DNA of 59,974 bases, taken from NCBI GenBank assembly GCA_964611805.1, contig CAZTBG010000002.1:3053-63026 (forward strand), in the 5' to 3' direction. Below the pieces are notes generated by a model that saw only the letters and a program-made list of their open reading frames with translations, did no database searches and had not been told where the DNA came from. Below are positions 5,478 through 34,187 of this stretch, piece after piece; position 1 is the stretch's first letter, and each line of letters opens with the position of its first letter. The DNA comes from an uncultured Dehalococcoidales bacterium. Its GTDB lineage: Bacteria; Chloroflexota; Dehalococcoidia; Dehalococcoidales; Fen-1064. Made by a program: the position numbers and the translations under genes.

Positions 5478-5490
5478 TGGGGATATTGTA

Positions 5491-9980: not shown

Positions 9981-9990
9981 GGAGGTCAAA

Positions 9991-10842
9991 ATGGCTAAAG
10001 TAGGTATTGTCACGGATACTATTGCCTGTTTGCCCCCGGAGATAATCCAGAGATACGATATCAGGATTTTACCCGTCCCCCTCAATATTAACGGTAAGCC
10101 TCATCGCGATGGGGTAGACATCAATCCGGACGGTTTCTGGGAAATATTCAAGGACATCAGGGAATTCACCACCGGTGCACCGGCTATCACCGAGTATACT
10201 GATATTCTGAAAGACCTGAGCAAAACAACTGATAATATCGTCTGCATTTTTGTGTCCAAAGGCCTGAGTGCCATTAATGAAGCAGGAGTCCAGGCATGCG
10301 ACCTGTTTAAGAAAGAGAACCCGGGAGTCAATATAGAGGTTATTGATAGCCGGACCGCCGCCGGAGCGGAGGGATTCATCGTAGAGGAAATGGCCCGGGC
10401 GGCAAATGATGGCAAGAGCCTGGCCGAAGTCGTTCAGGTGGCTAACGATACTATCCCCAGGGTGAAGTTTGTAACGGTAATGGAGACCCTGAAGTATCTT
10501 ATCAAGAGCGGAAGGGCTCCCAAGACAGCCTATATGGGAGAACTATTTCAGGTAAAGCCGATAATCGGTATGGTCAACAATACCGGACTGGTCGAGAACC
10601 TGGGGCGAGCCAGAGGTAAGGAAAAGGCCCTGGCAAGGTTGCTCAAGTTAATGGAAGAACACGTTGATGTCAGCCAGCCGATACGGGTCAATGTTCATTA
10701 CACTAACTCCATTAAAGACGGTGAACAACTGAAAGAACTGGTCACAAATAGATTCAATTGTATGGAAACCTATTTCACTCCCTACACACCGGTGATGTCC
10801 GGCCATACAGGTCCGGTAGTCGCGGTCTCCTTCTATGCCTGA
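9991..10842 (+). CDS. DegV family fatty-acid-binding protein (FakB-like)
   Basis: 283-aa ORF with DegV-like N-terminus (VGIVTDTIACLPPE); adjacent to DAK2 protein. Confidence 0.8.
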   Translation: MAKVGIVTDTIACLPPEIIQRYDIRILPVPLNINGKPHRDGVDINPDGFWEIFKDIREFTTGAPAITEYTDILKDLSKTTDNIVCIFVSKGLSAINEAGVQACDLFKKENPGVNIEVIDSRTAAGAEGFIVEEMARAANDGKSLAEVVQVANDTIPRVKFVTVMETLKYLIKSGRAPKTAYMGELFQVKPIIGMVNNTGLVENLGRARGKEKALARLLKLMEEHVDVSQPIRVNVHYTNSIKDGEQLKELVTNRFNCMETYFTPYTPVMSGHTGPVVAVSFYA

Positions 10843-10894
10843 GATAGAATAGCAATTGAGTTCGTGGTGTTACCTGACCGAAGGTTTATATGTG

Positions 10895-12520: not shown

Positions 12521-12561
12521 CTTTCCGGCAAGTACTGGATACAGGGAGGGGCGGTAGCTGT

Positions 12562-13368
12562 TTGGTGCAGGAAAATACACCGCTGGAAGAGCTGATTAAA
12601 CTTGGCGGTAAAGGTGCAATTGTTACCGGCGGAGCCAGGGGTATTGGGTTCGCCATTGCCCGCAGGCTAGCCGAAGCCGGGGCTACAGTATGTCTAGCTG
12701 ATATCAACGCTGGAGAAGCTGAAAAAGCATCCGGTGAACTCACATCCCAGGGGTATAATGTGCTATTCCTGAAGTGCGATGTGACTGATGAAGCGGATGT
12801 GCGGGATATGGTAGCCGGTGCCGTAACAAAACTGGGCAGCATTGATATACTGGTCAATAATGCTGGTATTTATCCCCGAAAACCACTCGGTGAAATGACC
12901 GGTGATGATTTCGAGCGCGTGATATCGGTAAACCTGAAAGGGACATTTCTCTGCAGTCGATATGCCATCCCGGAGATGATAAAGAATCAGCGGGGCGGCT
13001 CCATTATAAACATTGCTTCAATCGAGGCTGTCCACCCTTCGTCCACAGGGATGTCTGCCTATGATGCTTCGAAGGGTGGTGTGTTAATGCTCACCAAAAG
13101 TATGGCACGCGAACTCGGACAACATGGCATTCGTGTGAATGCTATTGCCCCAGGGGCTATTAAGACTCAGGGTATCCTGTCACACACCAAAATATCACCA
13201 GACAGGAGTCAGATAAAAGAACTGAAGTCCTTTGTATCGCGTATGGCTCTAGGGCGAATGGGCGACGCAGATGATATTGCCAGAGTGGCCTTATTCCTGG
13301 CGTCAGACCTATCCAGTTACATCACTGGCGATTTGATTGTGGTCGACGGTGGTTATTTAGTGTCCTAA
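12562..13368 (+). CDS. SDR family oxidoreductase
   Basis: TGGARGIGFAIA, NNAGI, YDASKGG motifs. Confidence 0.8.
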   Translation: MVQENTPLEELIKLGGKGAIVTGGARGIGFAIARRLAEAGATVCLADINAGEAEKASGELTSQGYNVLFLKCDVTDEADVRDMVAGAVTKLGSIDILVNNAGIYPRKPLGEMTGDDFERVISVNLKGTFLCSRYAIPEMIKNQRGGSIINIASIEAVHPSSTGMSAYDASKGGVLMLTKSMARELGQHGIRVNAIAPGAIKTQGILSHTKISPDRSQIKELKSFVSRMALGRMGDADDIARVALFLASDLSSYITGDLIVVDGGYLVS

Positions 13369-13589
13369 CGAGCCGAGACATCATCTCTTCCCCATTCACT
13401 GTTAGACAAGAATACAGATACTAACCATTCAAGAGCTATTACACGGTAAGAAAGTGGATTACCCACAACATGCAACAGTAGCCACATTCAAGAAAGCACA
13501 GCGAGTACGTAAGGCTAAAGGTGAGGAACAAAACCGATTGCTGTAACTGTAACTCTGCGAACTTTTTTCATACGTACTTTTCGATAACC

Positions 13590-14192
13590 TTATACACCAG
13601 GTTTGATTTGAGTTAATGCTTCCTTATTTACTTCCCTGATATAGAATATCGCTTGCAAGTATGTGGCTATTGCATACACAAACTCATTCTCCAATACTGG
13701 GAACAACACTGGATTGGCAAGCCAACTATCATATACAGCCTTTTTCTCTTTATTCGCATGAGCTAGACCGCCATATAAAAAGACTTCAAATACATGCCTA
13801 TAATTTATGTTGGCCTTACCAATTTTTATAGGAGCTGGCTTGTCAAGAAATTCATTCGTCTTGTTACGTGCTTCATTGAACTTCTGAACCAAATCAGCAC
13901 TAACTGATAACTTATCATAAATATCTGCCATGTTTCTAAACGATGTGGTTTCATTATCTTGGACGAAAAATCGTAATGTGAATAAGAATGCATCAATAGA
14001 TTCATCATCGGGGCCAAAACGTTCAGCTTTGATAAATTGCCCCTCTTCTCCATAGATTCTAAACCCACTTTTCTGATTAAAGACTGTTTTCGTAAAGCTA
14101 AGACCTTCTAGCTTAATTGCCTTCTCGTTAAATAATTCTAGAGCATAAACTGCACATTCACTTTTGGCTAACTTTCGTTTTTGCTTTTTCAT
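13590..14192 (-). CDS. Hypothetical protein (200 aa), no domain recognised, in AT-rich islet
   Basis: Only long ORF in an AT-rich segment; opposite orientation to flanking genes. Confidence 0.5.
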   Translation of the reverse strand: MKKQKRKLAKSECAVYALELFNEKAIKLEGLSFTKTVFNQKSGFRIYGEEGQFIKAERFGPDDESIDAFLFTLRFFVQDNETTSFRNMADIYDKLSVSADLVQKFNEARNKTNEFLDKPAPIKIGKANINYRHVFEVFLYGGLAHANKEKKAVYDSWLANPVLFPVLENEFVYAIATYLQAIFYIREVNKEALTQIKPGV

Positions 14193-14270
14193 TACGCAAA
14201 AACTTTATCCCCACCGCGTATTTTTGTCAATAACAGTTAGACTTAAACATTGTTTTGCTGGAATCTTCAG

Positions 14271-14293
14271 TTTTTGCTAACATTTTTGCTAAC
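14271..14293. repeat. Two tandem copies of TTTTTGCTAAC (12-bp period) upstream of the 13590..14192 gene
   Basis: TTTTTGCTAAC at 14271-14281 and 14283-14293. Confidence 0.6.
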
Positions 14294-14757
14294 GAACTTT
14301 TTAGCACCATAAAAAACCAAGAGTTACTTAGCGGTACAAATCAAAGCTAAATCGAATGTAAAGAGGCACTAGGATTTACTTGCTTCCACGCTCAGGTACA
14401 AACCTCCTGTATCTTGCTAGAACACCCGATCCAACAAATTCACGAATATCTTGTGAACTGATTTTGACTTTGTACGAACTGAGCTTGTTTATGTTCCTGC
14501 CGAATACGAGAAACAATATGTTGAATTCATACTCACGAATCATCTCAATCCAGGTGGTAAATTGCTGGTAGCTAATTACGGGAAGGCATGAGTAATCAAG
14601 AAGGATGTCTTCCCGAGGGAGCGCATGCGACCGACAACATCGTTCAGCATCTCAGTGAACTTGGTATAAAGGCTGTTCAATATCAAGATGGCTATGACCG
14701 AATCAAGAACAGGAAAACAAGAGTCGCCATCTTGACATCCGAGGCAATAAGGTAAAA

Positions 14758-23737: not shown

Positions 23738-24403
23738 ATGGAAGAGACTATGTCTTGGGATAATGAGTATAGACATCATAAACGCGTTTGGGGAGAGGGA
23801 CCAAGCGCATTGGCCTCTTTTGCCGTGGATTACCTGCAGGAATTACAGTTATACCAGAAGACCCTTAGCATCTTGGACATCGGATGCGGTTACGGCCGTG
23901 ACGCGGTTTATCTATGCCAACATACCGATTGCACCATAGTAGGTATCGACAATTCACAAGGAGCCATTGAGATGGCCAGGGGTACTCGCCCCAAGGAATA
24001 TATTGGCAGAATAGACTTTAAGTTCCTCGATTTTACTCGGCTTCCTGTAAACGATAGATACGACGTGGTTTTCGCATCCAATCTCTATCAATTACTGAGG
24101 CCAGAAGAGAGGGCTGCATTTAGGAAGATATCAAGAAGGGTTCTAAGTCCGAATGGACTGTTGTTTCTGAGTACATTATCTACGAGTGATCCTGAGCATT
24201 ATGGTAAGGGTACCGCCGCTGTGGGTGATATTAACTCATTCGTGGATGAGAAGTATCTGCACTTATGCACGTGCGGAGAACTAGAGCGGGAATTTAGTTT
24301 TCTGAACATCAAGGAACTGAAAGAGCACGAATATTATGAGCCTCGTGCTACCGGTAGAACTCATCACCATATCTCATGGCTGTTGGTAGGACATAAAGAG
24401 TGA
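23738..24403 (+). CDS. Class I SAM-dependent methyltransferase
   Basis: Motif I ILDIGCGYGRD. Confidence 0.8.
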   Translation: MEETMSWDNEYRHHKRVWGEGPSALASFAVDYLQELQLYQKTLSILDIGCGYGRDAVYLCQHTDCTIVGIDNSQGAIEMARGTRPKEYIGRIDFKFLDFTRLPVNDRYDVVFASNLYQLLRPEERAAFRKISRRVLSPNGLLFLSTLSTSDPEHYGKGTAAVGDINSFVDEKYLHLCTCGELEREFSFLNIKELKEHEYYEPRATGRTHHHISWLLVGHKE

Positions 24404-24770
24404 GCACCTATGTTACAGAGTCAGCCTTGCAGCCACTCTCTCTAGCATAAACTGACGGTATTAACCAGGTACCTGAACAATCGTCCAGAATGTGCTGTCT
24501 AGGTCAAAATTGCTTGTAAAGGTCAATTGCTTAGCACAGCTTCACGTATAACACTACTTACGCGCAAGAGTTGAACTTACTTTTATGACCTAATAGTCGA
24601 GACTATTTAAGCCGTCTCGTTTCGGTGCCACAATATACTAAAAAGTTACTCCTGATTTCACGCTCAATGGCTATATGCAAGACTGAGCCTTACAAGGAAC
24701 GTTGTTACACAGTCTAATAAAGAGGCTAGGGACTATTGTATATCCGTTTATTTATTTCTGCTTATTTGCC

Positions 24771-25268
24771 TTAGTCAGATGAGGATTTTTCACTCTTGAC
24801 AGTAAAGCAATTTGCTAGTGTCTTTTCGACGTCTCTTAGCCGTGACCCAATTATGTGTGACAGGCTCTGAAAGACAATATAGCCGATGCGGTTGTCCTCA
24901 TCAAGGAGACCCATAAGCTCGGCACCATTGATAGTCACAACCTCGGTAGTTTTTGTACAGATTGCTGACATGACATAGAAATGGGGCCTCACCAAGGCAG
25001 ACCATCCAAAGCAACCACCAGTGGTGACTGTATCAACCAACAAGTTTTCTCTCACTGGCCGGTATTCAGAAGGAAAATCTGCTACCAGGTCTACTTGTCC
25101 TCTGACGAGCACATACAGGTATTTTGCTCTCACCCCAAACTTAAAAATAATCTCGCCCGCCAAAAATAGTTCTTTGTGGGATGAGGGTAACTCAGCTATC
25201 TTCAACAGGGCAGCGTCGTCCAGCCCGAGGAATAACTCGGCCCTTTTTAGGGTTGTCTCAATTCCCAT
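24771..25268 (-). CDS. Cyclic-nucleotide-binding domain protein without DNA-binding domain
   Basis: cNMP-binding layout (LFLGLDDAALLKIA, YLYVLVRGQVDLV, GGCFGWSALV); the 165 aa leave no room for an HTH. Confidence 0.75.
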   Translation of the reverse strand: MGIETTLKRAELFLGLDDAALLKIAELPSSHKELFLAGEIIFKFGVRAKYLYVLVRGQVDLVADFPSEYRPVRENLLVDTVTTGGCFGWSALVRPHFYVMSAICTKTTEVVTINGAELMGLLDEDNRIGYIVFQSLSHIIGSRLRDVEKTLANCFTVKSEKSSSD

Positions 25269-25455
25269 ATCTTATTTTCCTGCGATACGGCCCCCTGCTC
25301 TTCTCACAACAGGTATTGTACCCCGTATCCTATTATCCATCGGTGGTGCCTCGGAGTCAAACCAGTTACTTTATACAGTGTGTCGGCAATACCGCCATTG
25401 AGGTGTGATATTGGCACGTCTGGGATACTTGACAATGATGGTGAAGAGGCGTAAT

Positions 25456-26145
25456 ATGCCGTGCATCATGGTCGACATCGCTGTCACAATCAACGGCGCT
25501 CCGGTAACCGGACGGGAAGGAGCTACTATTCTGGAGGTCGCTCGGGAGAACGGGATTGATATCCCCACGCTATGTTACCGACCAGAATTCACCCCGATTG
25601 GTGCTTGCCGTTTATGTGTTGTGGAAGTGGAAGGTTCCAGAACTCTGGTGGGCTCCTGCCACACACCAATCACCGAGGGGATGGTAGTTCATACCCACTC
25701 CCCCAAGGTGCTGGAGACTCGCCGTACAATAGTGGAGCTATTGCTGGCCAGTCACAGTGGCACCTGCTACATGTGTGACAAGGCTAATGTGTGCGAGTTG
25801 CGTGCCATTGCCGCCGACCTGGACGTTGGGCTTCCTCAGTTTCAGGTCAGAAAACGCTATTACTCGATTGAGGACAGCAGCCCATATATTGTCCGCGACC
25901 TGACCAAGTGTGTCCTGTGTCGTCGATGTGTATGGGCGTGCAAAGAGGTGGCCAAGAAGGATGTATTCGCCATTGGCTACCGGGGTTTTGACTCAAAGAT
26001 TGTGGTCGACTTTGACCAGCCACTTGACAAAGAAGTCTGTAAGGATTGTGGTATCTGCATCCCCTTTTGCCCAACTGGGGCATTGAGCACACCACGAAGA
26101 ATCGCGGAAGAGAAGGAAGGTAAGCTACTAATAATAAAAGGTTGA
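25456..26145 (+). CDS. HoxU / NuoG-N-terminal-like iron-sulfur protein (2Fe-2S, His-ligated 4Fe-4S, two 4Fe-4S)
   Basis: TLCY..GACRLCVVEVEG..GSCHTP; HSGTCYMCDKANVCELR; CVLCRRCVWAC; CKDCGICIPFCP. ATG 25456 follows AAGAGG; the ORF-track start is 25405. Confidence 0.8.
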   Translation: MPCIMVDIAVTINGAPVTGREGATILEVARENGIDIPTLCYRPEFTPIGACRLCVVEVEGSRTLVGSCHTPITEGMVVHTHSPKVLETRRTIVELLLASHSGTCYMCDKANVCELRAIAADLDVGLPQFQVRKRYYSIEDSSPYIVRDLTKCVLCRRCVWACKEVAKKDVFAIGYRGFDSKIVVDFDQPLDKEVCKDCGICIPFCPTGALSTPRRIAEEKEGKLLIIKG

Positions 26146-26173
26146 TTGACTGAGGAGAGGTGGGGGAAGGAAG

Positions 26174-26620
26174 ATGAACAATCATCCTCAGCGACCTTCT
26201 AATCAAAGTGAGGACAGGCAGAACCTGCTCTTGCTGCTGAAAGAGACGCAGCGTAGGTATGGCTACCTGTCTAAACAACTCATGTGCGAGCTAGCCGAGT
26301 CACTCGGCATCTCGACCAGTGAGGTGTATGGTGTCGCGACCTTCTATTCGTTCCTCTCCACCCAACCAAAGGGAAGGAACATCATCCGTGTGTGTAAGGG
26401 GCTTCCCTGCTGTCTCAAGGACTACCACCTGATAGTCAGCTCCATCGAAGACGTCATAGACATAAGCCCCGGAGAGACCACTCTCGATGGCAGGTTCTCT
26501 TTCGAGCTTGTAAATTGTATCGGTGCCTGTGATAGTGCGCCCGCAATGCTGGTGAATAATGATTTGCACGCTGGCCTGACCCCTCGCAAAATCTCTCAAA
26601 TTTTGAAGGAGTACGAGTAG
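26174..26620 (+). CDS. NuoE/HoxE-like thioredoxin-fold 2Fe-2S protein
   Basis: CKGLPC and CIGACDSAP cysteine motifs. Confidence 0.85.
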   Translation: MNNHPQRPSNQSEDRQNLLLLLKETQRRYGYLSKQLMCELAESLGISTSEVYGVATFYSFLSTQPKGRNIIRVCKGLPCCLKDYHLIVSSIEDVIDISPGETTLDGRFSFELVNCIGACDSAPAMLVNNDLHAGLTPRKISQILKEYE

Positions 26621-26653
26621 GCCACCACCAAGGATGAATAAGGACTATGGCAG

Positions 26654-27850
26654 ATGCCTGAGCAACGAGTTGTCCTGAAGAACTGTGGGATTATTGACCC
26701 TACACAGATAGCTACGTATTTAGCATCGGATGGTTTTGAAGCCCTGAAGAAAGCTCGTAATATTACGCCCGAACAGGTTATTCAGGAAGTTAAGGATTCG
26801 GGACTACGGGGGCGGGGGGGTGCTGGTTTTCCCTGCGGCCTTAAGTGGGAGCTGGCGAGGAATGCCCTTGGGGATGATAAATACGTGATATGTAACGCTG
26901 ACGAGGGCGAGATAGGGACGTTCAAGGACAGGTTCATCCTGGCCAATGACCCTTTTACTCTGATTGAAGGGATTGCTATCGCTGGTTATGCCATTGGCGC
27001 CCGGAGTGGCTATATCTACCTGCGCGCCGAGTACCACTACCTCTACGACCTGCTAGTGAAATCCGTCAATAAGGTCCGGGAGGCAGGATTCCTTGACGGC
27101 TTTAGCATTACTATCTGTGAGGGTGCAGGTGCCTACGTATGCGGTGAGGAATCAGCGCTGATGGACTCGATTGAAGGCAAGCGTGGAGAAGTACGCTACC
27201 GGCCTCCTTTCCCCCCGACTAGGGGGCTGTGGGGAGAGCCGACTGTTATAAACAACGTGGAAACACTGATGAACATCCCCCGAATATTACTCAATGGCGC
27301 GGACTGGTTCAGCGGGATAGGTACGGAGCGGAGTAAGGGTACTAAGGTATTCTCAGTTAGTGGAGACGTAAGTAAGCCCGGCGTTTATGAAATGGTTCTG
27401 GGCAGCAAGCTGACGGAGCTGGTCGAGGGTCTTGCGGCAGCGAAGAAAGTAAAGGCGGTACAAGTAGGTGGTGCCACCGGTAGAATCATACCATATCACA
27501 TGATGGACACAGAACTGTCTTTTGAGACTGTTCTTGGTGCTGGTGCCATCACCGTTTATAACGATAGTCGGGATATGTTAGACATCGTCCATAAGACTTT
27601 GCAGTTCCTCGCTGAGGAGAGTTGTGGCAAGTGCAGTCCGTGTCGGGAGGGTACTGAGGTGATGGTTGAAATTCTTGGGAGGTTTACTCGGGGCGAGGGC
27701 AGTGCACGTGACATCGCAGCCATGGAGAGGCTATCACAAGCGATGATGCTTTCCGCACTGTGCGGCCTGGGGCAAGCAGCCCCCAACCCGGTACTGGACA
27801 GTTTGCAGTACTTCCGTGGTGAGTATGAGCGCCGGTTCAGAGGAAAGTGA
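26654..27850 (+). CDS. NuoF/HoxF-like NAD(H)- and FMN-binding flavoprotein
   Basis: GRGGAGFPCGLKW, GEESALMDSIEG, ESCGKCSPCREG motifs. Confidence 0.9.
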   Translation: MPEQRVVLKNCGIIDPTQIATYLASDGFEALKKARNITPEQVIQEVKDSGLRGRGGAGFPCGLKWELARNALGDDKYVICNADEGEIGTFKDRFILANDPFTLIEGIAIAGYAIGARSGYIYLRAEYHYLYDLLVKSVNKVREAGFLDGFSITICEGAGAYVCGEESALMDSIEGKRGEVRYRPPFPPTRGLWGEPTVINNVETLMNIPRILLNGADWFSGIGTERSKGTKVFSVSGDVSKPGVYEMVLGSKLTELVEGLAAAKKVKAVQVGGATGRIIPYHMMDTELSFETVLGAGAITVYNDSRDMLDIVHKTLQFLAEESCGKCSPCREGTEVMVEILGRFTRGEGSARDIAAMERLSQAMMLSALCGLGQAAPNPVLDSLQYFRGEYERRFRGK

Positions 27851-28530
27851 GGTGGTATGAGGAAATGATAACGATTACCGAGCAGAAGCCGTCACAAGAG
27901 ATACTGCAGTCGCTTGAGGGAAGTAAGTCCGTATATATTATCGGCTGCGGCGCCTGTGCCACTATGCTACACACCGGCGGAAAATCTGAAGTCCTGGCCA
28001 TGAAAGAGAAACTGGAGGAAGCCGGGAAAAAGGTCACCGGCTGGATGGTTATACCTACGGTCTGTGACCAGCTCACCGAGGTTGCACTTACAGAGACCGC
28101 AGAGGCAATTCGAGCCGCCGATGTCATACTGGTAATGTCCTGTGCCTTTGGTGTGCAGACTGTAGGTTTTTATGCGGACTTGCCGGTGTTCCCGGCACTT
28201 AATACGCTCTTCGTGGGTAAGGAGGAGACACCGGGACACTTTGTTGACGTCTGCATGCAATGTGGTAACTGTGTCCTGGCGCGTACGGCCGGTATCTGCC
28301 CCCTGGTGCGGTGTTCAAAGAGCCTGCTCAATGGGCCGTGTGGGGGTTCTGTAGAAGGCAGGTGTGAAGTTGATTCCAGTATACCCTGTGTCTGGCAGAC
28401 AATCTATGACCGCCTAGCTGCCCAGGGGCGACTTGCTGAGCTGGACGAGATAGAGCCAATTAAAGACTGGAGCACCAGCTCTTCGAGTGTACCAAGACGA
28501 TTTGACGCGATTAACTCAGATGAACAGTAA
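27847..28530 (+). CDS. metV: Methylenetetrahydrofolate reductase C-terminal-domain protein (MetV)
   Basis: IIGCGACATMLHTGG and CMQCGNCVL..CPLVRCSKSLLNGPCGG motifs; GTG 27847 overlaps the upstream stop, ATG 27865 is an alternative. Confidence 0.8.
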   Translation: MRWYEEMITITEQKPSQEILQSLEGSKSVYIIGCGACATMLHTGGKSEVLAMKEKLEEAGKKVTGWMVIPTVCDQLTEVALTETAEAIRAADVILVMSCAFGVQTVGFYADLPVFPALNTLFVGKEETPGHFVDVCMQCGNCVLARTAGICPLVRCSKSLLNGPCGGSVEGRCEVDSSIPCVWQTIYDRLAAQGRLAELDEIEPIKDWSTSSSSVPRRFDAINSDEQ

Positions 28531-29962
28531 TTTCTCGATAGAGAGTGTGGCATCAAGCTACAGTCCGGAAGAAGCAGCCCTGCTGATGCGTCTCAGGGTA
28601 TTCGTTACCATGAGGTGGATAGCTATTCTCGGGATGCTTGCTGCTACTCTTGTCACATCCCTGATACTTGACATCAAATTCCCTACTTTACCGGTTTACC
28701 TCATCTGTCTGTTAATAGCCCTGTATAATATTGTGTTCTATTTTCAACTCCGGACTCTAGGTGGAGGGCAGCCGGGTACGATAGTCCATAAAGCCCGGAT
28801 ATATGGCAATGTGCACATTTTTCTTGACCTGCTTGCGCTAACCGTACTCCTACATTTCACCGGCGGGATAGAGAATCCTCTGGTATTTTTCTACGTTTTC
28901 CACATAGTCTTGGCAAGTATCGCCCTAAACTTCAGGGTGGTATATATAGTAGCCACGGGTGCTCTAATGATGGTGGGGCTTCTTGTTGGTCTGGAGTACG
29001 CCAAAGTAATACCTCATGTTAACTTGGAAGGATTTGCTGACCCCACGCTCTATCAGGACGGAGTTTATATCTGGGCCATTTTGCTTGCCCTGGCAGCAAT
29101 TCTGTACGGTACTACCTACATGGCGACTGCTATTTCCGGTGAGTTGAGGAAGAGGCAACGGCAGGTGGTGCAACTGGGCGAGCAGCTCCTCGAAGAGAAG
29201 AAGGACGAACTGGAACAGGTTTCCAGAGAGAAGGCCGAGCTTGCTGAGGAAAAAGAACGCTTCCTCCAGTTCCTCAGTATCGCCGCTCATGACCTGAAAG
29301 CACCCCTTACTGCTATCCAGGGATTTCTGTGGGTGATGGTGGGCGGGTATGCCGGCGAGTTGACAGACAAACAGAGAAACATGCTTGAAAGAAGTAGCAG
29401 GCGGATTACCGAACTGCTAAATCTAATCAGCGACCTGCTGGATATCCCGCGCATTGAGACCGGGCAAATCATCCCGGAGATGAAAGACATTTCCCTGCGA
29501 CAGGTACTCAGGAACTGTCTTCAGGAACAGCGCAAGGTAGCTAAAGAAAAGGGGTTGAGACTCGTGGTTGAGCTACCGGACAAACTCGATAGAATTCGCG
29601 GCTCAAGCCCTCGCTTACAACAGGTAGTCGCGAACCTGATAGGAAATGCGATACAGTATACTGATGACGGCACAATAACCGTTAGCGTAAAAGATCTAGG
29701 TGACGACATACAGGTTGAAATTAAAGATACGGGGATTGGTATTCCAGAAGATGATATGCCACGATTATTCGAAGACTTTTTCCGGGCGAGTAATGTGGAA
29801 GTAAAGGGAACTGGTCTGGGACTCTCTATTGCCAAGAGGATAGTAGAGGCACACAACGGCAAGATATGGTGTGAGAGTCCCTGCCCAGAGACCAACCAGG
29901 GGAGCAGGTTCACTTTTACCTTACCCAAAATGAGGAAACATTCACGGAGGCAAAAGCGATGA
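28520..29962 (+). CDS. Membrane sensor histidine kinase
   Basis: Polytopic N-terminal domain with FTGGIENPLVFFYVFH, coiled-coil, H-box FLSIAAHDLKAPL, N-box NLIGNAIQYT, G-boxes DTGIGI and GTGLGLSI. Overlaps the metV stop and the metF start. Confidence 0.85.
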   Translation: MNSNFSIESVASSYSPEEAALLMRLRVFVTMRWIAILGMLAATLVTSLILDIKFPTLPVYLICLLIALYNIVFYFQLRTLGGGQPGTIVHKARIYGNVHIFLDLLALTVLLHFTGGIENPLVFFYVFHIVLASIALNFRVVYIVATGALMMVGLLVGLEYAKVIPHVNLEGFADPTLYQDGVYIWAILLALAAILYGTTYMATAISGELRKRQRQVVQLGEQLLEEKKDELEQVSREKAELAEEKERFLQFLSIAAHDLKAPLTAIQGFLWVMVGGYAGELTDKQRNMLERSSRRITELLNLISDLLDIPRIETGQIIPEMKDISLRQVLRNCLQEQRKVAKEKGLRLVVELPDKLDRIRGSSPRLQQVVANLIGNAIQYTDDGTITVSVKDLGDDIQVEIKDTGIGIPEDDMPRLFEDFFRASNVEVKGTGLGLSIAKRIVEAHNGKIWCESPCPETNQGSRFTFTLPKMRKHSRRQKR

Positions 29963-30876
29963 AGGCAGGTACCAACTTGGAGAAGGTCTTAGAAAGCGGT
30001 AGATTTGCCGTCACTGCCGAGGTCGGCCCGCCGAAAGGGCCCAGTGCAGCCGTAATTCGCCGGAGGGGGGGAATTGTCCGGGACTATGTTGACGCCGTTA
30101 ATGTCACCGACAATCAAACTGCGGTAGTCCGTATGTCAAGCCTGGCTGGCTGTGTAATCCTGAAAACACTCGATGTCGACCCGGTGATGCAGATTGTCTG
30201 CCGGGACAGGAACAGAATAGCTATTCAAAGTGATGTGCTCGGTGCTGTTGCCCTAGGTATCGGCAACATACTCTGTCTTTCCGGCGACCATCAGAAATTC
30301 GGTAACCACCCGAGCGCGAAGGGCGTATTTGATATTGACTCTATGCAGCTGATCCAGACGCTGAAAAATATGAGGGATGAGAAGAAATTCATCTGTGACG
30401 AGGACATTACCGGGGAGGTACCCATCTATATCGGCGCTGCGGCAAACCCGTTTGCCGACCCCTTTGAGTTCCGCGTAACAAGGCTTGCCAAGAAGGTCAA
30501 GGCCGGGGCTGATTTCATTCAGACTCAGGCGGTGTACGATGTTCCAAAGTTTCGCCGTTGGATGGAAATGGTCTGTGAGCGAGGGCTGGACCGGCAGGTG
30601 CACATCTTAGCAGGGATTATACCGATAAGGTCGATAGGTATGGCCCGCTACATGCGAGATTACGTTGCTGGTGTGTCAGTGCCCGATGAGATTGTTACCA
30701 GGTTAGAAAAGGCAGAAAATGCCCGGGAAGAAGGGGTGAAAATTCCACTGGAGATTATCGAACAGCTCAAGGAGATTCCGGGCATCCACGGCATACACAT
30801 CATGGCAGTAGGCTGGGAGGAAATTGTCCCTGATATCGTAGAAAAGGCTGGATTGTTGCCGAGACCTGTGTTATGA
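29959..30876 (+). CDS. metF: Methylenetetrahydrofolate reductase (MetF)
   Basis: MTHFR family layout (VNVTDNQTAVVRMSS.., CRDRNRIAIQSDVLGA.., LCLSGDH). Confidence 0.85.
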   Translation: MKAGTNLEKVLESGRFAVTAEVGPPKGPSAAVIRRRGGIVRDYVDAVNVTDNQTAVVRMSSLAGCVILKTLDVDPVMQIVCRDRNRIAIQSDVLGAVALGIGNILCLSGDHQKFGNHPSAKGVFDIDSMQLIQTLKNMRDEKKFICDEDITGEVPIYIGAAANPFADPFEFRVTRLAKKVKAGADFIQTQAVYDVPKFRRWMEMVCERGLDRQVHILAGIIPIRSIGMARYMRDYVAGVSVPDEIVTRLEKAENAREEGVKIPLEIIEQLKEIPGIHGIHIMAVGWEEIVPDIVEKAGLLPRPVL

Positions 30877-30894
30877 TTCTGCAGGAGGTTTGAT

Positions 30895-31302
30895 ATGGCG
30901 GAGAAGATTCTCATAGTCGATGATGACCCCGACATCTTGGATGCCCTGACAATGATTCTTGAATCGCAGAACTACGAAGTTGTAACCGCACGAGACGGTG
31001 TTGAAGGTCTGGCAAACCTCAAAGCCGAAGAACCTGACCTCATGATACTCGACTTATTAATGCCGAAGATGGACGGCTTTAGCGTTTTAAAAGAACTTCA
31101 GGATCCGAGATGGTCCAAATATAAGAGCATACCGATTCTAATTCTGACCTCAGTGAGAGAAGAAGCCAGCCGGCGCCGCTATGAACTGGAAACGGGCCTG
31201 GAGTTGGGTGTTGATGATTACGTGGAAAAACCGATGCTCCCGGAGGTTTTACTTGAGCGGGTTGGGAAGCTTATTAGAAAAAAGAAGAAAGGGCGTACCT
31301 AG
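30895..31302 (+). CDS. Stand-alone receiver-domain response regulator (CheY-like)
   Basis: ILIVDDDPD, phospho-acceptor context LMILDLLMPKMDG; the 135 aa include no output domain. Confidence 0.9.
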   Translation: MAEKILIVDDDPDILDALTMILESQNYEVVTARDGVEGLANLKAEEPDLMILDLLMPKMDGFSVLKELQDPRWSKYKSIPILILTSVREEASRRRYELETGLELGVDDYVEKPMLPEVLLERVGKLIRKKKKGRT

Positions 31303-31335
31303 AGTCTATTTTAAAGCTTCAGTACGGAAGGGAGA

Positions 31336-31740
31336 ATGAGGATGCAAGACAAGGCTAAAATACTGATTGTTGACGATGATGTTGACTTCGCAGAATCCGT
31401 TAAGACTATCCTTGAGGCTAAGCCTTATAATGTAATTGTTGCCACTCAGGGGGACGAGGGACTGCAAAAGGCAAGGAATGAGAATCCGGACCTTATTCTA
31501 CTGGATGTGATAATGCCAGTGAAGGACGGATTTACAGCTGCCGAGCAGCTCAAGAAAGACCCCGAACTTTCCAAGATACCCGTAATAATGCTCACGGCTT
31601 TTTCGGCCAAAGGTGGGGAGACTTCAATTCCAAGAAGTCGGGGGTACACTCTTGAGACCGAAGATTATATTGAGAAACCGGTACGTCCTCAGGACCTGTT
31701 GGCAGCGGTGGAAAAAGCACTGCGAATAGCCTCTTCATGA
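31336..31740 (+). CDS. Stand-alone receiver-domain response regulator (CheY-like)
   Basis: ILIVDDDVD, LILLDVIMPVKDG; the 134 aa include no output domain. Confidence 0.9.
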   Translation: MRMQDKAKILIVDDDVDFAESVKTILEAKPYNVIVATQGDEGLQKARNENPDLILLDVIMPVKDGFTAAEQLKKDPELSKIPVIMLTAFSAKGGETSIPRSRGYTLETEDYIEKPVRPQDLLAAVEKALRIASS

Positions 31741-31947
31741 TCGAGAACCGTTCTTAACTGCATAAACACAGCTATATAAGTCTACCTGTGGAGACTGTAC
31801 CACAGACTGTGGCTAGTACGCCATAGGCGAGACGTGTAAAGAATGGACACCAAGTTTTTCAGTGGTATAAGCTAATAGAAATTTGGAGCATTTTCCTACT
31901 AAGTAAACATTGTTTAAGTAGTCCCGAATAATTATCCGGCAATATAT

Positions 31948-31980
31948 AAAAGGCATCCCTGCCGCTGGGATGCTTTTTAT
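31948..31980 (+). terminator. Intrinsic terminator
   Basis: GCATCCC (31953-31959) pairs with GGGATGC (31967-31973), followed by TTTTTAT; A-tract upstream. Confidence 0.6.
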
Positions 31981-31999
31981 TACCCTTTTCTTTCATTCT
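31981..31999. repeat. Left copy of an 18/19-bp direct repeat (TACCCTTTTCTTTCATTCT)
   Basis: Matches 32651-32668 with one single-base indel; lies directly after the terminator. Confidence 0.6.
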
Positions 32000-32265
32000 C
32001 TTTTGGCGGATTACCCACATACTAGCTAGCCCTTGAAATTTGACCTTATGACTTATTGTTATGGACCCCTATGGTGAATTAGGTCGGTTATTTGATATAT
32101 GGGAATATGCGTATAACATGGATTATACGTGGTGAGTTGAGGTAAGGTCAGGTGTGCGCTGACAATTATGGGTAAGCCAACTCTTGCTAGGATCGCTATT
32201 TATACAGAAGAGACTATCTTAAGTAGCTATAGTATAACTAAAATCTTAGTAAAACATTAGGTTCA

Positions 32266-32385
32266 TTGAATCTATCAACGGCAATAATAGACCAACAGCT
32301 CGACCGGGTTTTACCTATTAGCCAACAATTGGAAGCTCAAATGTGTGAAATTGGGTTCGTAAATACACATTCCGATGCTTTGTAG
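32266..32385 (+). pseudogene. Truncated third member of the small-ORF family found at 32844 and 33153
   Basis: TTG-initiated 39 codons LNLSTAIIDQQLDRVLPISQQLEAQMCEI.., paralogous to MKSTVAIHEELDRVLTQVELED..QAMEIY of the 32844 ORF; shared DNA string GACCGGGTTTTA. Confidence 0.35.
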
Positions 32386-32650
32386 TCTGGATTATTACCA
32401 CAACCGCGTACTTCTTCCAGAGATGGACGATTACCTCATCGTCTTGGAAGGTAAAAGCAGGACATTGGGATAATCAACTAGCCTCACATGCACTTGATTG
32501 TCACAATTTAGTATCATGTGGACTATCATTCACCCCGACTTTCGGTGTTACCAAAGTGTAATTTGAAACATTCCTGACCCTCGGATTCAAATGTTTAGGC
32601 ATTTCAGGCAAGTCAGATTTAACCACGTAGTCACCAAACCTAAGTCAGTA

Positions 32651-32668
32651 TACCCTTTTTTTCATTCT
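32651..32668. repeat. Right copy of the 18/19-bp direct repeat (TACCCTTTTTTTCATTCT)
   Basis: See 31981-31999. ATTACCCAC follows the left copy and its near inverse GTGGGATAAT follows the right copy. Confidence 0.6.
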
Positions 32669-32843
32669 GGCCACGTGGGATAATCTCAGATAGTTAACCT
32701 TACTAAAGTACCATTACTTTACTATCATACAGGGTATATACGTAAGTACTGCTTTTAAAGATTAGGACTAATCTGAATACGATTCATATACACACCTTCT
32801 GATACAAAACAATGAGAATTTCTATTTACAGGGAGAGATTATC

Positions 32844-33101
32844 GTGACAAGAGACGGAATGAAATCCACTGTAGCAATTCATGAAGAACTAGACCGGGTT
32901 TTAACCCAGGTAGAGCTGGAGGACTACCTTTCAATGGCATCCCAGGCTATGGAGATATACGAGATGTTTGATAAGGCTGATGCCATCGGCTCGGATTACG
33001 GCCAGGGTTATCAGGATGGATTCTGGACAGGACATAAGCTCGACGCGAAATATCAACTGGCCAAAATGGAGTCTATTGAAGAGAAGCTCTCGATTTTTTA
33101 G
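32844..33101 (+). CDS. Small hypothetical protein (85 aa), member of a local paralogous family
   Basis: GTG start preceded by GGGAGAG; C-terminal SDYGQGYQDGFWTGHKL motif recurs in the next ORF. Confidence 0.5.
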   Translation: MTRDGMKSTVAIHEELDRVLTQVELEDYLSMASQAMEIYEMFDKADAIGSDYGQGYQDGFWTGHKLDAKYQLAKMESIEEKLSIF

Positions 33102-33152
33102 AGCAATGCGGATACTGGATGTTATCTATGTAGTGCTACATGAGATACCACA

Positions 33153-33371
33153 ATGTTGATAAGTAGGGGGAAATACCATAGCGATATCAATGCCGCTTAT
33201 ACAAGAGGGCTTGAGCAGGGCTTCGAACTATCACGAAAGCTAAAACGAATTCGTGAGGGAAAAAACCAGGAGTCTTCTTCCCCACTTGATATGAATAAAT
33301 CGGAAGAATCGTCACTATTACTGCAGCAACTGATTGATATCGCTGAACGTAAAGTGATCAAATTGAGATGA
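33153..33371 (+). CDS. Small hypothetical protein (72 aa), shares the G(Y/L)(Q/E)(D/Q)GF motif with the 32844 ORF
   Basis: SDINAAYTRGLEQGFELSRKL parallels SDYGQGYQDGFWTGHKL; no clear RBS. Confidence 0.4.
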   Translation: MLISRGKYHSDINAAYTRGLEQGFELSRKLKRIREGKNQESSSPLDMNKSEESSLLLQQLIDIAERKVIKLR

Positions 33372-33479
33372 ACTATTATTCAACGTTCAAGGAATATGCG
33401 ATAGGCGAGTACCAGATTACGGCATGCGCACTAGGAAGCGTGACTGCTTCATTACAGCCTCAGCATTAGGAGAGTTTAT

Positions 33480-34187
33480 ATGGCAAAACTGTCGAAGTAT
33501 ACCGGTCTAATATCTACTGGAAATGATGAGCTTGACAAGAAAATGGGGGGAGGGATACCACCTAACTCTCTCAGTCTGATAGAGGGACAGCCGGATTCGG
33601 GGAAATCTGTCCTGTCACAGCAGATGATATGGGGTTCTCTCAGAAACGGATGCAAGGTAGCCATCTTCACCACGGAGAACTCTGTGAGGAGCCTCATCAC
33701 ACAAATGAAGAGCCTGAATCTTAGCATCCTGGATTATTACCTACTCTCCAGACTATATATCTATCCTATAGATGCTAAAAAATCAGCGGGCGGCATGAAT
33801 ACCGGACTAATTCCCATGATTCAAAATTGTGCCTTGGAAGGTTTTAACTTGGTGGTTGTTGACTCTATTACTTACTATGCTACTCATGTCACTATTACTG
33901 AGCTGATTACCTTTTTCGAGGACATGAAAGCTCTAACCAGTAAAGGACTGAGTATCATTTGCAGCGTTCACCCCTATGCCTTTGATGAGAGTACACTTAT
34001 CAGAGTAGGAGCCATGTGTGACGCTCACCTGAGGCTACGCATTGAGACCATGGGGACTAAGTTGGCAAAAATTCTGGAGGTAGCCAAGATACGCGGCGCT
34101 GCCCAGAAGACAGGCAACGTAATCACGTTTGACGTCGAACCAAATTGGGGCATCAAGGTTATACCATATGCCAAGGCGAGGGCCTAG
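33480..34187 (+). CDS. KaiC/RecA-superfamily ATPase, archaellum ArlH (FlaH)-like
   Basis: ISTGNDELDKKMGGGIPPNSLSLIEGQPDSGKSVL (Walker A), LVVVDS (Walker B without the following Glu), VHPYAFDES, ITFDVEPNWGIKVIPYAKARA. Colinear with archaeal FlaH as recalled; AGGAGAG RBS. Confidence 0.8.
   Translation: MAKLSKYTGLISTGNDELDKKMGGGIPPNSLSLIEGQPDSGKSVLSQQMIWGSLRNGCKVAIFTTENSVRSLITQMKSLNLSILDYYLLSRLYIYPIDAKKSAGGMNTGLIPMIQNCALEGFNLVVVDSITYYATHVTITELITFFEDMKALTSKGLSIICSVHPYAFDESTLIRVGAMCDAHLRLRIETMGTKLAKILEVAKIRGAAQKTGNVITFDVEPNWGIKVIPYAKARA

What the first reader, a model, noticed from the sequence alone, without database searches (positions are those of the whole stretch)
25456..30876. HoxU/HoxE/HoxF-like diaphorase module encoded in one operon with MetV and MetF
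The operon runs as follows: a roughly 230-aa NuoG-N-terminal/HoxU-type FeS protein, a NuoE/HoxE-type 2Fe-2S protein, a NuoF/HoxF-type FMN/NAD(H) protein, MetV, an interposed kinase, then MetF. Gaps are at most about 33 nt or the genes overlap. MTHFR architectures described for acetogens are MetF alone, MetFV, MetFV-RnfC2 and MetFV-HdrABC-MvhD. A complete three-subunit HoxEFU/NuoEFG-type module without a hydrogenase or formate-dehydrogenase catalytic subunit would be a further type. It could be NAD(H)-linked and, because NuoEF-like pairs form bifurcating modules elsewhere, possibly electron-bifurcating.
Basis: partly seen in the sequence, partly recalled or inferred. Interest (0 to 1): 0.65.

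Follow-up and report, generated by a model that had tools for sequence, protein, structure and literature searches.

The report
NADH-linked MetVF reductase operon
An uncultured Dehalococcoidia bacterium encodes the folate enzyme MetVF in one tight operon with a small NADH-oxidising iron-sulfur module and its own sensor kinase; the arrangement is real and conserved, but a 2021 paper had already noted it, and the sequence points to a plain NADH-driven enzyme, not an energy-saving bifurcating one.

Summary
Eight co-directional, tightly packed genes (25456-31740) encode a HoxU/NuoG-N-terminal-like Fe-S protein, NuoE-like, a short NuoF-like flavoprotein, MetV, a membrane histidine kinase, MetF and two receiver-only response regulators. 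A strong terminator follows.

The linkage is not chance. MetV follows the NuoF orthologue directly in 35 of 74 informative species-representative loci, nearly all Dehalococcoidia. MetV phylogeny also tracks the electron-input module.

The claim of a further MTHFR type is not new. Yi et al. 2021 (PMC8515935) described NuoEFG-homologue genes upstream of metFV, "widely in Desulfobacterales and Chloroflexi", as an unstudied "X type". This scan has also reported the same arrangement on other DNA several times.

Bifurcation is unlikely. The 398-aa NuoF lacks the N- and C-terminal cluster domains (B2-B5) that Bfu-type bifurcation requires. It has complex-I-like GTFKDR where the genome's five long paralogues have PGAFMDR or a close variant.

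The best reading is a non-bifurcating NADH:methylene-THF oxidoreductase, analogous to Acetobacterium woodii MetFV-RnfC2, under local two-component control.

The genome holds five MetVF sets, one of them fused to a [NiFe] hydrogenase operon.

The parts
24771..25268 (-). Stand-alone cyclic-nucleotide-binding protein (165 aa), transcribed divergently from the operon. It is a probable accessory of the regulatory cassette.
   Evidence: A paralogue is fused to a kinase as cNMP_binding-HisKA-HATPase_c-REC at a second MetVF locus of the same genome (C11). Homologues flank the operon in relatives L028, L030, L031, L040 and L062. They are fused to the kinase in hydrogenase-MetVF operons L168-L171.
25456..26145 (+). 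HoxU / NuoG-N-terminal-like Fe-S subunit (229 aa). It is predicted to bind one [2Fe-2S] and three [4Fe-4S] clusters, one of them His-ligated. It has no catalytic domain.
   Evidence: Pfam Fer2_4, NADH-G_4Fe-4S_3 and Fer4_Nqo3. NCBIfam HoxU 198.7 bits, below the cut-off of 333. Cys/His pattern C40/C51/C54/C68; H100/C104/C107/C113; C152/155/158/162; C195/198/201/205. SD-like GAAGAGG lies before the ATG at 25456.
26174..26620 (+). NuoE-like thioredoxin-fold [2Fe-2S] subunit (148 aa).
   Evidence: Pfam PF01257, 157 bits. NCBIfam NuoE NF005722 145.6 bits, above the cut-off of 141; HoxE 111.8 bits, below 224. Cluster ligands C74, C79, C115, C119.
26654..27850 (+). Short NuoF-like FMN/NADH subunit (398 aa) with a single [4Fe-4S] cluster. 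It lacks the N-terminal thioredoxin-like domain and the C-terminal 2x[4Fe-4S] domain of Bfu-type subunits.
   Evidence: Pfam Complex1_51K residues 46-210, SLBB, NADH_4Fe-4S residues 310-393. Motifs GRGGAGFP at 53-60, GEESALMDSIEG, and C324/C327/C330/C370. It has GTFKDR like E. coli NuoF (GTYKDR); the five long paralogues have PGAFMDR or a close variant.
27865..28530 (+). MetV, the Fe-S (zinc) electron-transfer subunit of MetVF-type MTHFR. The alternative GTG start at 27847 overlaps the nuoF stop codon.
   Evidence: Pfam PF12225, 119.6 bits. NGPCGG motif at 162-167 and Cys clusters. In the MetV tree only one change separates Nuo-linked from NiFe-linked forms.
28520..29962 (+). Membrane histidine kinase inserted between metV and metF. 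It has about 5-6 transmembrane segments, a GGIENP motif, HisKA and HATPase_c. The alternative GTG start is at 28487.
   Evidence: Pfam HisKA and HATPase_c. Hydropathy analysis and motif. The kinase sits at the same position in 16 of 35 Nuo-MetV loci and in 4 hydrogenase-MetVF loci.
29959..30876 (+). MetF, the flavin-binding catalytic subunit of methylene-THF reductase. Its start overlaps the kinase stop codon as ATGA.
   Evidence: Pfam PF02219, 137.6 bits. The residues equivalent to E. coli Glu28, Asp120 and Gln183 are conserved. Junction read.
30895..31302 (+). Response regulator 1. It is a receiver domain only (135 aa) with no output domain.
   Evidence: Pfam Response_reg only. Orthologues of 68-94% identity follow metF in relatives. 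A paralogue lies at own-genome locus C11.
31336..31740 (+). Response regulator 2. It is a receiver domain only (134 aa).
   Evidence: Pfam Response_reg only. It is conserved after RR1 in relatives.
31946..31981 (+). Intrinsic terminator hairpin followed by a T-run. It marks the end of the transcription unit.
   Evidence: The scan finds a 7-bp GC-rich stem. RNAfold gives a 14-bp stem at -19.5 kcal/mol, followed by TTTTTATT.

Best explanation
The operon encodes a soluble five-subunit NADH:methylene-tetrahydrofolate oxidoreductase with its own regulatory cassette.

Proposed mechanism:
1. NADH gives a hydride to the FMN of the short NuoF-like subunit.
2. Electrons leave one at a time through the NuoF [4Fe-4S] cluster. 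The NuoE [2Fe-2S] is a side cluster, as in the complex I N-module.
3. They run along the [2Fe-2S]/[4Fe-4S] chain of the HoxU-like subunit into the Fe-S clusters of MetV.
4. They reach the flavin of MetF, which reduces 5,10-methylene-THF to 5-methyl-THF. In reverse, the enzyme oxidises methyl-THF.

The reaction is not coupled to ferredoxin, so it is non-bifurcating. Functionally it is the analogue of the NADH-dependent MetFV-RnfC2 enzyme of Acetobacterium woodii.

MetV is the adaptor that docks the input module. The membrane kinase, the two receiver-only regulators and the neighbouring cNMP-binding protein adjust the system to a membrane or redox or second-messenger signal.

Shown: gene content, cofactor motifs, conserved synteny, and co-variation of MetV with the input module. 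Inferred: complex formation, the electron path, NADH specificity, the physiological direction, and what the two-component system controls.
For: 1. Domain content and intact cofactor motifs of all five enzyme subunits. MetF keeps the residues equivalent to E. coli Glu28, Asp120 and Gln183.
2. Tight packing with overlapping stops and starts, one terminator after the eighth gene, and internal promoter-like hits at chance level (13 found against 8.4 +/- 2.9 expected).
3. MetV lies directly downstream of the NuoF orthologue in 35 of 74 informative species-representative loci. It does so in 10 of the 13 genomes that carry the orthologue in an even sample of 300 Dehalococcoidia.
4. On a 63-row MetV tree the Nuo-linked versus NiFe-linked label changes only once. 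On the MetF tree it changes three times. This is as expected if MetV is the contact subunit of the input module.
5. The same short-NuoF clade (SH-aLRT 96) serves a second soluble enzyme, an XDH-family molybdoenzyme, in 38 loci. It therefore behaves as a portable NADH input module.
6. Evidence against bifurcation:
- The NuoF has only the B1-equivalent cluster and lacks the extensions that carry B2-B5.
- It has T and K where Bfu enzymes have A202 and M204.
- The five long paralogues in the same genome carry the Bfu-type extensions and a PGAFMDR-type motif.
- The published criteria are in Schut 2022 (PMC9304861) and Li 2025 (PMC11829005). Non-bifurcating homologues lack B2-B5, and deleting B3/B4 abolishes bifurcation.
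7. The genome has acetyl-CoA synthase and formyl-THF synthetase, so it has a Wood-Ljungdahl methyl branch that needs an MTHFR.
Against: - No biochemical or transcript evidence exists.
- By sequence the NuoF core is nearer to Bfu-type HydB/NfnB cores (428-412 bits) than to FdsB or Nqo1 (about 340 bits). It may therefore descend from a bifurcating ancestor and keep unknown properties.
- The minimal bifurcation site proposed in 2025, [B1-FMN-C1], is present here.
- The genome has five MetF and five MetV copies, so this set need not be the main Wood-Ljungdahl MTHFR.
- The operon is not next to the acs/fhs cluster on C28.
- The direction of catalysis is unknown.
- No Rnf was detected by tblastn, so the A. 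woodii bioenergetic scheme does not transfer directly.
Confidence: 0.62

Rival explanations
1. The complex is electron-bifurcating or confurcating. For example, 2 NADH would reduce methylene-THF and ferredoxin together. This is what the first reader and Yi et al. 2021 speculated for the X type.
For: - NADH to methylene-THF is exergonic by about 23 kJ/mol (established potentials, -320 and -200 mV), so coupling would pay.
- The NuoF core is most similar to Bfu HydB/NfnB cores.
- The minimal 'flavobicluster' B1-FMN-C1 is present.
- A preprint listed (title and abstract only seen) proposes electron confurcation by the cyanobacterial HoxEFUYH hydrogenase.
Against: - The NuoF lacks the B2-B5 sites and the ferredoxin-binding C-terminal domain.
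- Deleting B3/B4 abolishes bifurcation in T. kivui HydABC.
- The Bfu-specific A202 and M204 are replaced by the complex-I-type T and K in the window protein. The same GTFKDR (once GAFKDR) is found in the 63 of 80 related loci where the motif search hit.
- The genome keeps five true Bfu-type paralogues for other partners.
Confidence: 0.12
2. The three Nuo-like proteins are, or also serve as, the missing NADH-input (N) module of the 11-subunit Nuo complex encoded elsewhere. MetVF is only a neighbour.
For: - The genome has a NuoCD homologue on contig C1, but no NuoE, NuoF or NuoG homologue lies on that contig.
- The window NuoF is the only paralogue with the complex-I-type GTFKDR motif.
- Sewell 2017 notes that 11-subunit Nuo complexes in Chloroflexi may use a module encoded elsewhere.
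Against: - The HoxU-like subunit lacks the whole C-terminal NuoG domain that anchors the N-module to complex I.
- Synteny with MetV is conserved and translationally tight.
- MetV co-varies with the module.
- The sister clade is attached to another soluble enzyme, an XDH-family one.
Confidence: 0.07
3. The same complex works mainly in the oxidative direction (methyl-THF + NAD+ gives methylene-THF + NADH). It would feed methyl groups from demethylation or acetate oxidation into the methyl branch. This is a rival about the role, not about the architecture.
For: - Several SAM or corrinoid-type methyltransferase genes lie just upstream in the window.
- The genome holds a separate hydrogenase-MetVF operon that is better suited to reduction.
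- The A. woodii NADH-dependent enzyme is known to run in both directions (established knowledge).
Against: - Oxidising methyl-THF with NAD+ is endergonic under standard conditions.
- Nothing in the sequence fixes a direction.
- No corrinoid or THF methyltransferase gene is inside the operon.
Confidence: 0.3

Closest known systems
'X-type' (group III) MetFV methylene-THF reductase predicted by Yi et al. 2021 (Microbiol Spectr, PMC8515935), with Dethiosulfatarculus sandiegensis as exemplar
   Same: NuoEFG-homologue genes lie directly upstream of metV-metF. The paper states that the arrangement is widespread in Chloroflexi and Desulfobacterales and has not been characterised biochemically.
   Different: The paper speculated that the enzyme bifurcates; the subunit composition here argues against that. 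Here a kinase and two receiver genes are embedded in the operon. Whether the D. sandiegensis exemplar has this short NuoF or another NuoF form was not tested. Three Desulfobacterota genomes checked had no Nuo-MetV adjacency.
MetFV-RnfC2 ('3S type') NADH-dependent MTHFR of Acetobacterium woodii
   Same: A MetVF core is combined with one extra flavin/NADH-binding, Fe-S-containing input unit. The reaction is NADH-dependent and non-bifurcating (described in PMC8515935).
   Different: The input unit there is a single RnfC-like subunit with a MetV-like N-terminus. Here it is three separate subunits of NuoE, NuoF and NuoG-N-terminal type. The window NuoF matches RnfC models only weakly (35 bits).
MetFV-HdrABC-MvhD ('6S type') MTHFR of Moorella thermoacetica, and its marine Chloroflexi version with phoR/phoB around metF (Sewell et al. 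2017, PMC5736913)
   Same: A MetVF core is combined with a multi-subunit NADH-linked input module. In Chloroflexi DscP3, metF_1 is separated from metV and flanked by putative two-component (phoBR) genes, as metF is here.
   Different: The input module there is HdrABC-MvhD with an FAD-containing HdrA. There are no Hdr or MvhD genes in this operon.
N-module of respiratory complex I (NuoE/NuoF/NuoG) and the HoxEFU diaphorase of NAD-linked [NiFe] hydrogenases
   Same: The cofactor set is the same: FMN, N3-type [4Fe-4S], N1a-type [2Fe-2S], and the N1b/N4/N5-type clusters of the NuoG N-terminus or HoxU. NuoF has the GTFKDR-type motif.
   Different: The module is not in a nuo or hox operon. The HoxU-like protein lacks the NuoG C-terminal domain. 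The HoxE, HoxU and NuoF equivalog cut-offs are not reached. By my recollection (not checked here), HoxF of NAD-linked hydrogenases carries an extra N-terminal domain; the window NuoF has none.
Bfu (HydABC-type) family of electron-bifurcating enzymes (Schut et al. 2022; Li et al. 2025)
   Same: The three-subunit A/B/C layout is homologous. The NuoF core is most similar in sequence to solved BfuB cores (7t2r_B 428 bits).
   Different: The module lacks the B2-B5 sites and the Bfu-specific A202/M204 residues. The same genome has five true Bfu-type BfuB paralogues attached to other partners (FDH, POR and others).

Membership tests
MetFV-type methylene-THF reductase | A MetF subunit with the MTHFR TIM-barrel domain and catalytic residues (E. 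coli Glu28, Asp120, Gln183). | tested here: met
   PF02219, 137.6 bits. E, D and Q are conserved in the alignment with E. coli MetF.
MetFV-type methylene-THF reductase | A MetV subunit with the MTHFR C-terminal-like domain, the NGPCGG motif and Cys motifs for Fe-S clusters, encoded upstream of metF. | tested here: met
   PF12225, 119.6 bits. NGPCGG at 162-167 and 12 Cys. metV is upstream of metF but is separated from it by the kinase gene.
'X-type' MTHFR (Yi et al. 2021) | Genes for NuoE, NuoF and NuoG homologues lie immediately upstream of metV-metF in one cluster. | tested here: met
   The arrangement is conserved in 35 related loci.
'X-type' MTHFR (Yi et al. 2021) | MetFV sequences fall in group III of the authors' MetFV tree, with D. 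sandiegensis. | not tested
   The reference sequences could not be fetched.
'X-type' MTHFR (Yi et al. 2021) | A physical five-subunit complex with NADH-dependent activity. | not testable with these tools
   This needs purification and assay.
Bfu (HydABC-type) bifurcating family | BfuB carries the B2-B5 sites: an N-terminal thioredoxin-like domain and a C-terminal 2x[4Fe-4S] ferredoxin domain. | tested here: not met
   The protein is 398 aa. The FMN domain starts at residue 46 and the NADH_4Fe-4S domain ends at 393, and there is no Fer4 or 2Fe-2S_thioredx hit. The paralogues in the same genome do carry these extensions.
Bfu (HydABC-type) bifurcating family | The Bfu-specific residues A202 and M204 (A. 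mobile numbering) in the FMN/NADH domain. | tested here: not met
   The window has T and K (DEGEIGTFKDR), A. mobile has DEGDPGAFMDR and E. coli NuoF has DEMEPGTYKDR.
Bfu (HydABC-type) bifurcating family | The core flavobicluster: FMN plus B1 [4Fe-4S] plus C1 [2Fe-2S]. | tested here: met
   GRGGAGFP motif; C324/327/330/370 in NuoF; C74/79/115/119 in NuoE. Non-bifurcating homologues share this core.
HoxEFU diaphorase of bidirectional [NiFe] hydrogenase | Equivalog-level matches to HoxE and HoxU, and co-encoding with HoxYH. | tested here: not met
   HoxU 198.7 bits against a cut-off of 333; HoxE 111.8 against 224. There is no hydrogenase gene in the operon. The genome's two [NiFe] hydrogenases lie on other contigs. 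The one examined is group-1-like, not HoxYH.
Complex I N-module (NuoEFG) | Full-length NuoG with its C-terminal molybdopterin-like domain, a NuoF equivalog score, and location in a nuo operon. | tested here: not met
   The HoxU-like protein matches only NuoG positions 1-199 of 606. NuoF TIGR01959 scores 432.7 against a cut-off of 558.65. Only NuoE passes (145.6 against 141). The nuoCD homologue is on another contig.

The most novel reading that the evidence does not exclude
The complex does conserve energy, but by a mechanism outside the Bfu rules. The minimal B1-FMN-C1 site of a stripped-down NuoEF pair would bifurcate NADH electrons between methylene-THF (via HoxU-like and MetV) and a low-potential acceptor that docks on the HoxU-like or MetV clusters. 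The embedded kinase and receiver-only regulators would gate the complex post-translationally.
Probability: 0.08. Interest if true: 0.8.

Novelty: new member of a known kind. Interest (0 to 1): 0.36.

Why it matters
The electron donor of MetVF-type methylene-THF reductases, and whether this most exergonic step of the Wood-Ljungdahl pathway is energy-coupled, is a long-standing open point in the bioenergetics of acetogens and related anaerobes.

This operon is a clean, compact candidate for a directly NADH-driven MetVF enzyme in Dehalococcoidia, an abundant and mostly uncultured subsurface group. All cofactor motifs are intact, so it is suitable for heterologous expression.

- Sequence criteria predict no bifurcation.
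- MetV co-varies with the input module (NuoEFG-like or [NiFe] hydrogenase), whereas MetF and the kinase/receiver cassette are exchanged between modules. This points to MetV as the docking adaptor.

Because the arrangement itself is published and has been reported repeatedly by this scan, the finding is useful but not surprising.

Tried and rejected
- **Known RNA elements.** An Rfam search of 24000-33500 at E <= 1 found no riboswitch or leader.
- **Promoters.** The sigma-70-type scan gives hits at chance level. The best hit overlaps the start codon, so it was not used.
- **Solved structures.** No solved structure matches MetV by sequence.
- **X type in Desulfobacterota.** The MetV copies of three genomes (G001-G003) have no NuoF within 1.5 kb.
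- **A hydrogenase or FDH as the true partner.** This was rejected. There is no [FeFe] hydrogenase. The Sec-FDH on C5 has its own long NuoE/NuoF pair. The [NiFe] hydrogenase on C51 is group-1-like and is itself fused to another MetVF set.
- **Literature.** Searches for a biochemical characterisation of a NuoEFG-MetVF enzyme found none.

Full report
**Observation.**
- Pfam and NCBIfam identify, in order:
  - a 229-aa Fe-S protein with Fer2_4, NADH-G_4Fe-4S_3 and Fer4_Nqo3 domains (HoxU / NuoG N-terminus / HydA N-terminus type);
  - a 148-aa NuoE-type thioredoxin-like [2Fe-2S] protein;
  - a 398-aa NuoF-type protein (Complex1_51K, SLBB, NADH_4Fe-4S);
  - MetV (PF12225);
  - a HisKA/HATPase_c kinase;
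  - MetF (PF02219).
- The unit runs further than the finding's end. Two receiver-only response regulators (30895-31302, 31336-31740) follow, then a strong hairpin terminator at about 31946-31981.
- The junctions read directly from the sequence are 28, 33 and 14 nt (or a GTGA overlap), an 11-nt overlap, an ATGA overlap, then 18 and 33 nt.
- Shine-Dalgarno-like runs precede most starts.
- Promoter-like hits inside the unit are at chance level.
- No Rfam family matches the region.
- All cofactor motifs are intact:
  - The HoxU-like protein has ligands for one [2Fe-2S], one His-ligated [4Fe-4S] and two further [4Fe-4S] clusters.
  - NuoE has C74/C79/C115/C119.
  - NuoF has GRGGAGFP, GEESALMDSIEG and C324/C327/C330/C370.
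  - MetV has NGPCGG.
- MetF keeps the residues equivalent to E. coli Glu28, Asp120 and Gln183.

**Organism and genome.** The window is contig C2 of a 2.09-Mb, 99-contig, about 97% complete genome.
- The closest NuoF relatives are Dehalococcoidia/Dehalococcoidales MAGs, with 82% identity and the same eight-gene order in L028.
- The genome has acetyl-CoA synthase and formyl-THF synthetase on contig C28.
- It has no [FeFe] hydrogenase, two [NiFe] hydrogenases and three molybdopterin enzymes, two of which have an in-frame TGA.
- It has a NuoCD homologue on C1, with no NuoE, NuoF or NuoG on that contig, and no Rnf detectable by tblastn.
- It holds six NuoF-type genes and five copies each of MetF and MetV.

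**Is the linkage real?** I took the 80 best species-representative loci holding a NuoF orthologue of 60-82% identity.
- In 74 of them the downstream DNA is present.
- In 35, MetV follows NuoF directly. In 16 of these a kinase lies between metV and metF as here. In 5 the MetF belongs to a different MetF lineage.
- These 35 are almost all Chloroflexota. Twenty-seven are labelled Dehalococcoidia, and one is the NPL-UPA2 MAG Unc8.
- In 38 loci the same three-gene module is instead followed by the three subunits of a xanthine-dehydrogenase-family molybdoenzyme (Fer2_2, MoCoBD and FAD_binding_5). These come from Desulfobacterota, Acidobacteriota, Anaerolineae, Bathyarchaeia and some Dehalococcoidia.
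- On a NuoF tree the short proteins form one clade (SH-aLRT 96), apart from the long paralogues of the window's own genome. The XDH-linked ones form one subclade.
- In an even sample of 300 Dehalococcoidia genomes, 13 have the short-NuoF orthologue. In 10 of them a MetV gene starts 27-69 nt after it (coordinates cross-read).
- The module therefore behaves as a portable NADH-input unit for soluble enzymes, and MetVF is its regular partner in Dehalococcoidia.

**MetV as adaptor.** The same genome has a second MetVF set on contig C51, directly after the small and large subunits of a [NiFe] hydrogenase.
- In the 29 best loci holding orthologues of that MetV, the hydrogenase large subunit lies upstream in 26. 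The other three are cut by contig ends.
- Four of these hydrogenase operons carry a kinase between metV and metF. I re-fetched them as longer stretches, L168-L171.
- In L168-L171 the MetF is 74-76% identical to the window's MetF and the two receivers are 68-72% and 53-62% identical to the window's. The MetV, by contrast, is of the hydrogenase-linked kind.
- On a 63-row MetV tree the Nuo-linked versus NiFe-linked label changes once. On the MetF tree it changes three times, and all kinase-bearing operons fall in one MetF clade.
- Related sequences share labels through common descent, so these counts are descriptive. Even so, the pattern is what one expects if MetV is the subunit that contacts the input module and MetF, with its regulatory cassette, is exchangeable.

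**Bifurcation.**
- The published criteria are explicit:
  - Non-bifurcating homologues (complex I, NAD-dependent FDH, NAD-dependent [NiFe] hydrogenase) have FMN, B1 and C1 but lack the B2-B5 sites of BfuB.
  - Deleting B3/B4 abolishes bifurcation.
  - Bfu enzymes have conserved residues such as A202 and M204 of the A. mobile enzyme (PMC9304861, PMC11829005).
- The window NuoF is 398 aa. Its FMN domain starts at residue 46 and its last domain ends at 393, so it has neither the N-terminal thioredoxin-like domain nor the C-terminal ferredoxin domain.
- Aligned to A. mobile HydB, it has T and K at positions 202 and 204 (GTFKDR). This matches E. coli NuoF (GTYKDR) and not the Bfu state (PGAFMDR).
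- GTFKDR (once GAFKDR) was found in the 63 of 80 related loci where the motif search hit; no short-clade orthologue showed the Bfu state.
- The five other NuoF paralogues of the genome are 559-651 aa and all carry an N-terminal extension of about 175 aa. At least two score a C-terminal Fer4 domain. Their motifs are PGAFMDR, PGAFQDR or PGAYMDR.
- Two of them sit beside identified catalytic partners: a Sec-FDH (C5) and pyruvate:ferredoxin oxidoreductase subunits (C75).
- One caveat remains. Over the shared core, the window NuoF scores higher against solved Bfu HydB/NfnB chains (428-412 bits) than against FdsB or Nqo1 (about 340 bits). It may therefore be a stripped-down descendant of that lineage.

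**Literature.** The arrangement is not new.
- Yi et al. [quoted passage not shown] - Sewell et al. 2017 (PMC5736913) noted that in the marine Chloroflexi genome DscP3, putative two-component genes (phoBR) flank metF_1, which is therefore separated from metV, in an Hdr-type cluster.
- I found no paper that characterises the NuoEFG-linked enzyme.
- This scan has also reported the same five-gene arrangement on other DNA, with the same reading (e1-5141639, e1-2197571, e1-2973633). It has likewise reported the hydrogenase-MetVF operon (e1-3336293) and the XDH-linked module (e1-3237733). My results were obtained independently and agree with them.

**Regulatory cassette.**
- The kinase has about five or six hydrophobic segments in its first 220 residues and a GGIENP motif. 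It therefore looks like a membrane-embedded sensor.
- Both regulators are receiver-only.
- A stand-alone cNMP-binding protein is divergently transcribed at 24771-25268.
- A second locus in the genome (C11) has cNMP_binding-HisKA-HATPase_c-REC in one protein, a second receiver, a MetF-MetV fusion and another MetF.
- In L168-L171 the cNMP domain is fused to the kinase.
- The cassette is thus tied to MetF across three kinds of input module: NuoEFG-like, [NiFe] hydrogenase and, from the literature, Hdr.
- What it controls is unknown. Receiver-only regulators suggest protein-protein control or a phosphorelay, not direct DNA binding. This is inference.

**Verdict.**
- The best reading is a non-bifurcating NADH:methylene-THF oxidoreductase of the predicted X type, analogous in function to A. 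woodii MetFV-RnfC2, with an embedded two-component cassette (confidence about 0.6).
- The rivals are bifurcation by an unorthodox route (about 0.1) and use of the module as the missing N-module of the 11-subunit Nuo complex (below 0.1). An open question of direction remains.
Transcript evidence and a wider co-occurrence count are therefore missing.

Noticed in passing
Own genome contig C51 (locus L024) 5625-9657, minus strand; outside the window: A [NiFe] hydrogenase small subunit (294 aa), large subunit (519 aa), MetV and MetF lie in one contiguous string, with hyp maturation genes next to it. The small subunit aligns from profile position 38-49, so it appears to lack a Tat signal. The hydrogenase is group-1-like and probably cytoplasmic. 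The hydrogenase-MetV adjacency holds in 26 of 29 Dehalococcoidia loci, which suggests an H2-dependent MTHFR. An earlier scan note (e1-3336293) reports the same.
   Followed up: partly
Own genome contig C11 (locus L026) 7968-14647: This is a third MetVF locus. It holds a 664-aa MetF-MetV fusion, a 298-aa MetF paralogue with Tyr in place of the catalytic Asp120, a GNAT gene, a receiver, a cNMP_binding-HisKA-HATPase_c-REC hybrid kinase and a divergent MetV. The kinase and receivers are paralogues of the window's.
   Followed up: partly
Loci L051, L053-L055, L059, L065-L069, L072-L076, L079-L084, L087-L102 and L105 (for example L066 9240-13291): The closest non-MetV relatives of the three-gene module are followed by the 2Fe-2S, MoCo (about 816 aa) and FAD (about 324 aa) subunits of a xanthine-dehydrogenase-family enzyme. 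They come from Desulfobacterota, Acidobacteriota, Anaerolineae, Bathyarchaeia and some Dehalococcoidia. This is an uncharacterised NADH-linked molybdoenzyme.
   Followed up: partly
Own genome contig C75 (locus L021) 2611-7872: Pyruvate:ferredoxin oxidoreductase alpha and beta genes are followed directly by NuoE-like, long NuoF-like (617 aa, with both Bfu extensions) and HoxU-like genes. This is a Por-Bfu-type cluster as predicted by Schut et al. 2022. The contig ends just after it.
   Followed up: no
Own genome contig C26 (locus L025) about 3385-8297: This is a fourth metV-metF pair. It lies downstream of a multihaem cytochrome c7-like protein and a Fer4_11 protein, which may be yet another electron-input context.
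   Followed up: no
Locus L062 5219-13062: In one Dehalococcoidia MAG a metV-metF pair whose MetF is of the hydrogenase-linked type ends 37 nt before the hoxU-nuoE-nuoF-metV-kinase-metF-RR-RR operon. Two MTHFR gene sets are therefore arranged in tandem.
   Followed up: no
Loci L035-L038 and L061, about 600-4800: In several relatives a Bfu-type NuoE / long NuoF (PGAFMDR or PGAFQDR) / HoxU-like set lies about 2 kb upstream of the short module. In L036 another MetF lies before it.
   Followed up: no
Own genome contig C1 14840-16372: A NuoCD homologue is present, but no NuoE, NuoF or NuoG lies on the same contig, and no Rnf (RsxA/D/E) was detectable in the genome by tblastn. This suggests an 11-subunit Nuo complex as the main membrane coupling site.
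   Followed up: partly
window 25429-25457: The best sigma-70-like match (TTGACA, 17 nt, TAATAT) overlaps the hoxU-like start codon at 25456. Either it is spurious or the true start is the in-frame ATG at 25468, which would give a nearly leaderless mRNA.
   Followed up: no
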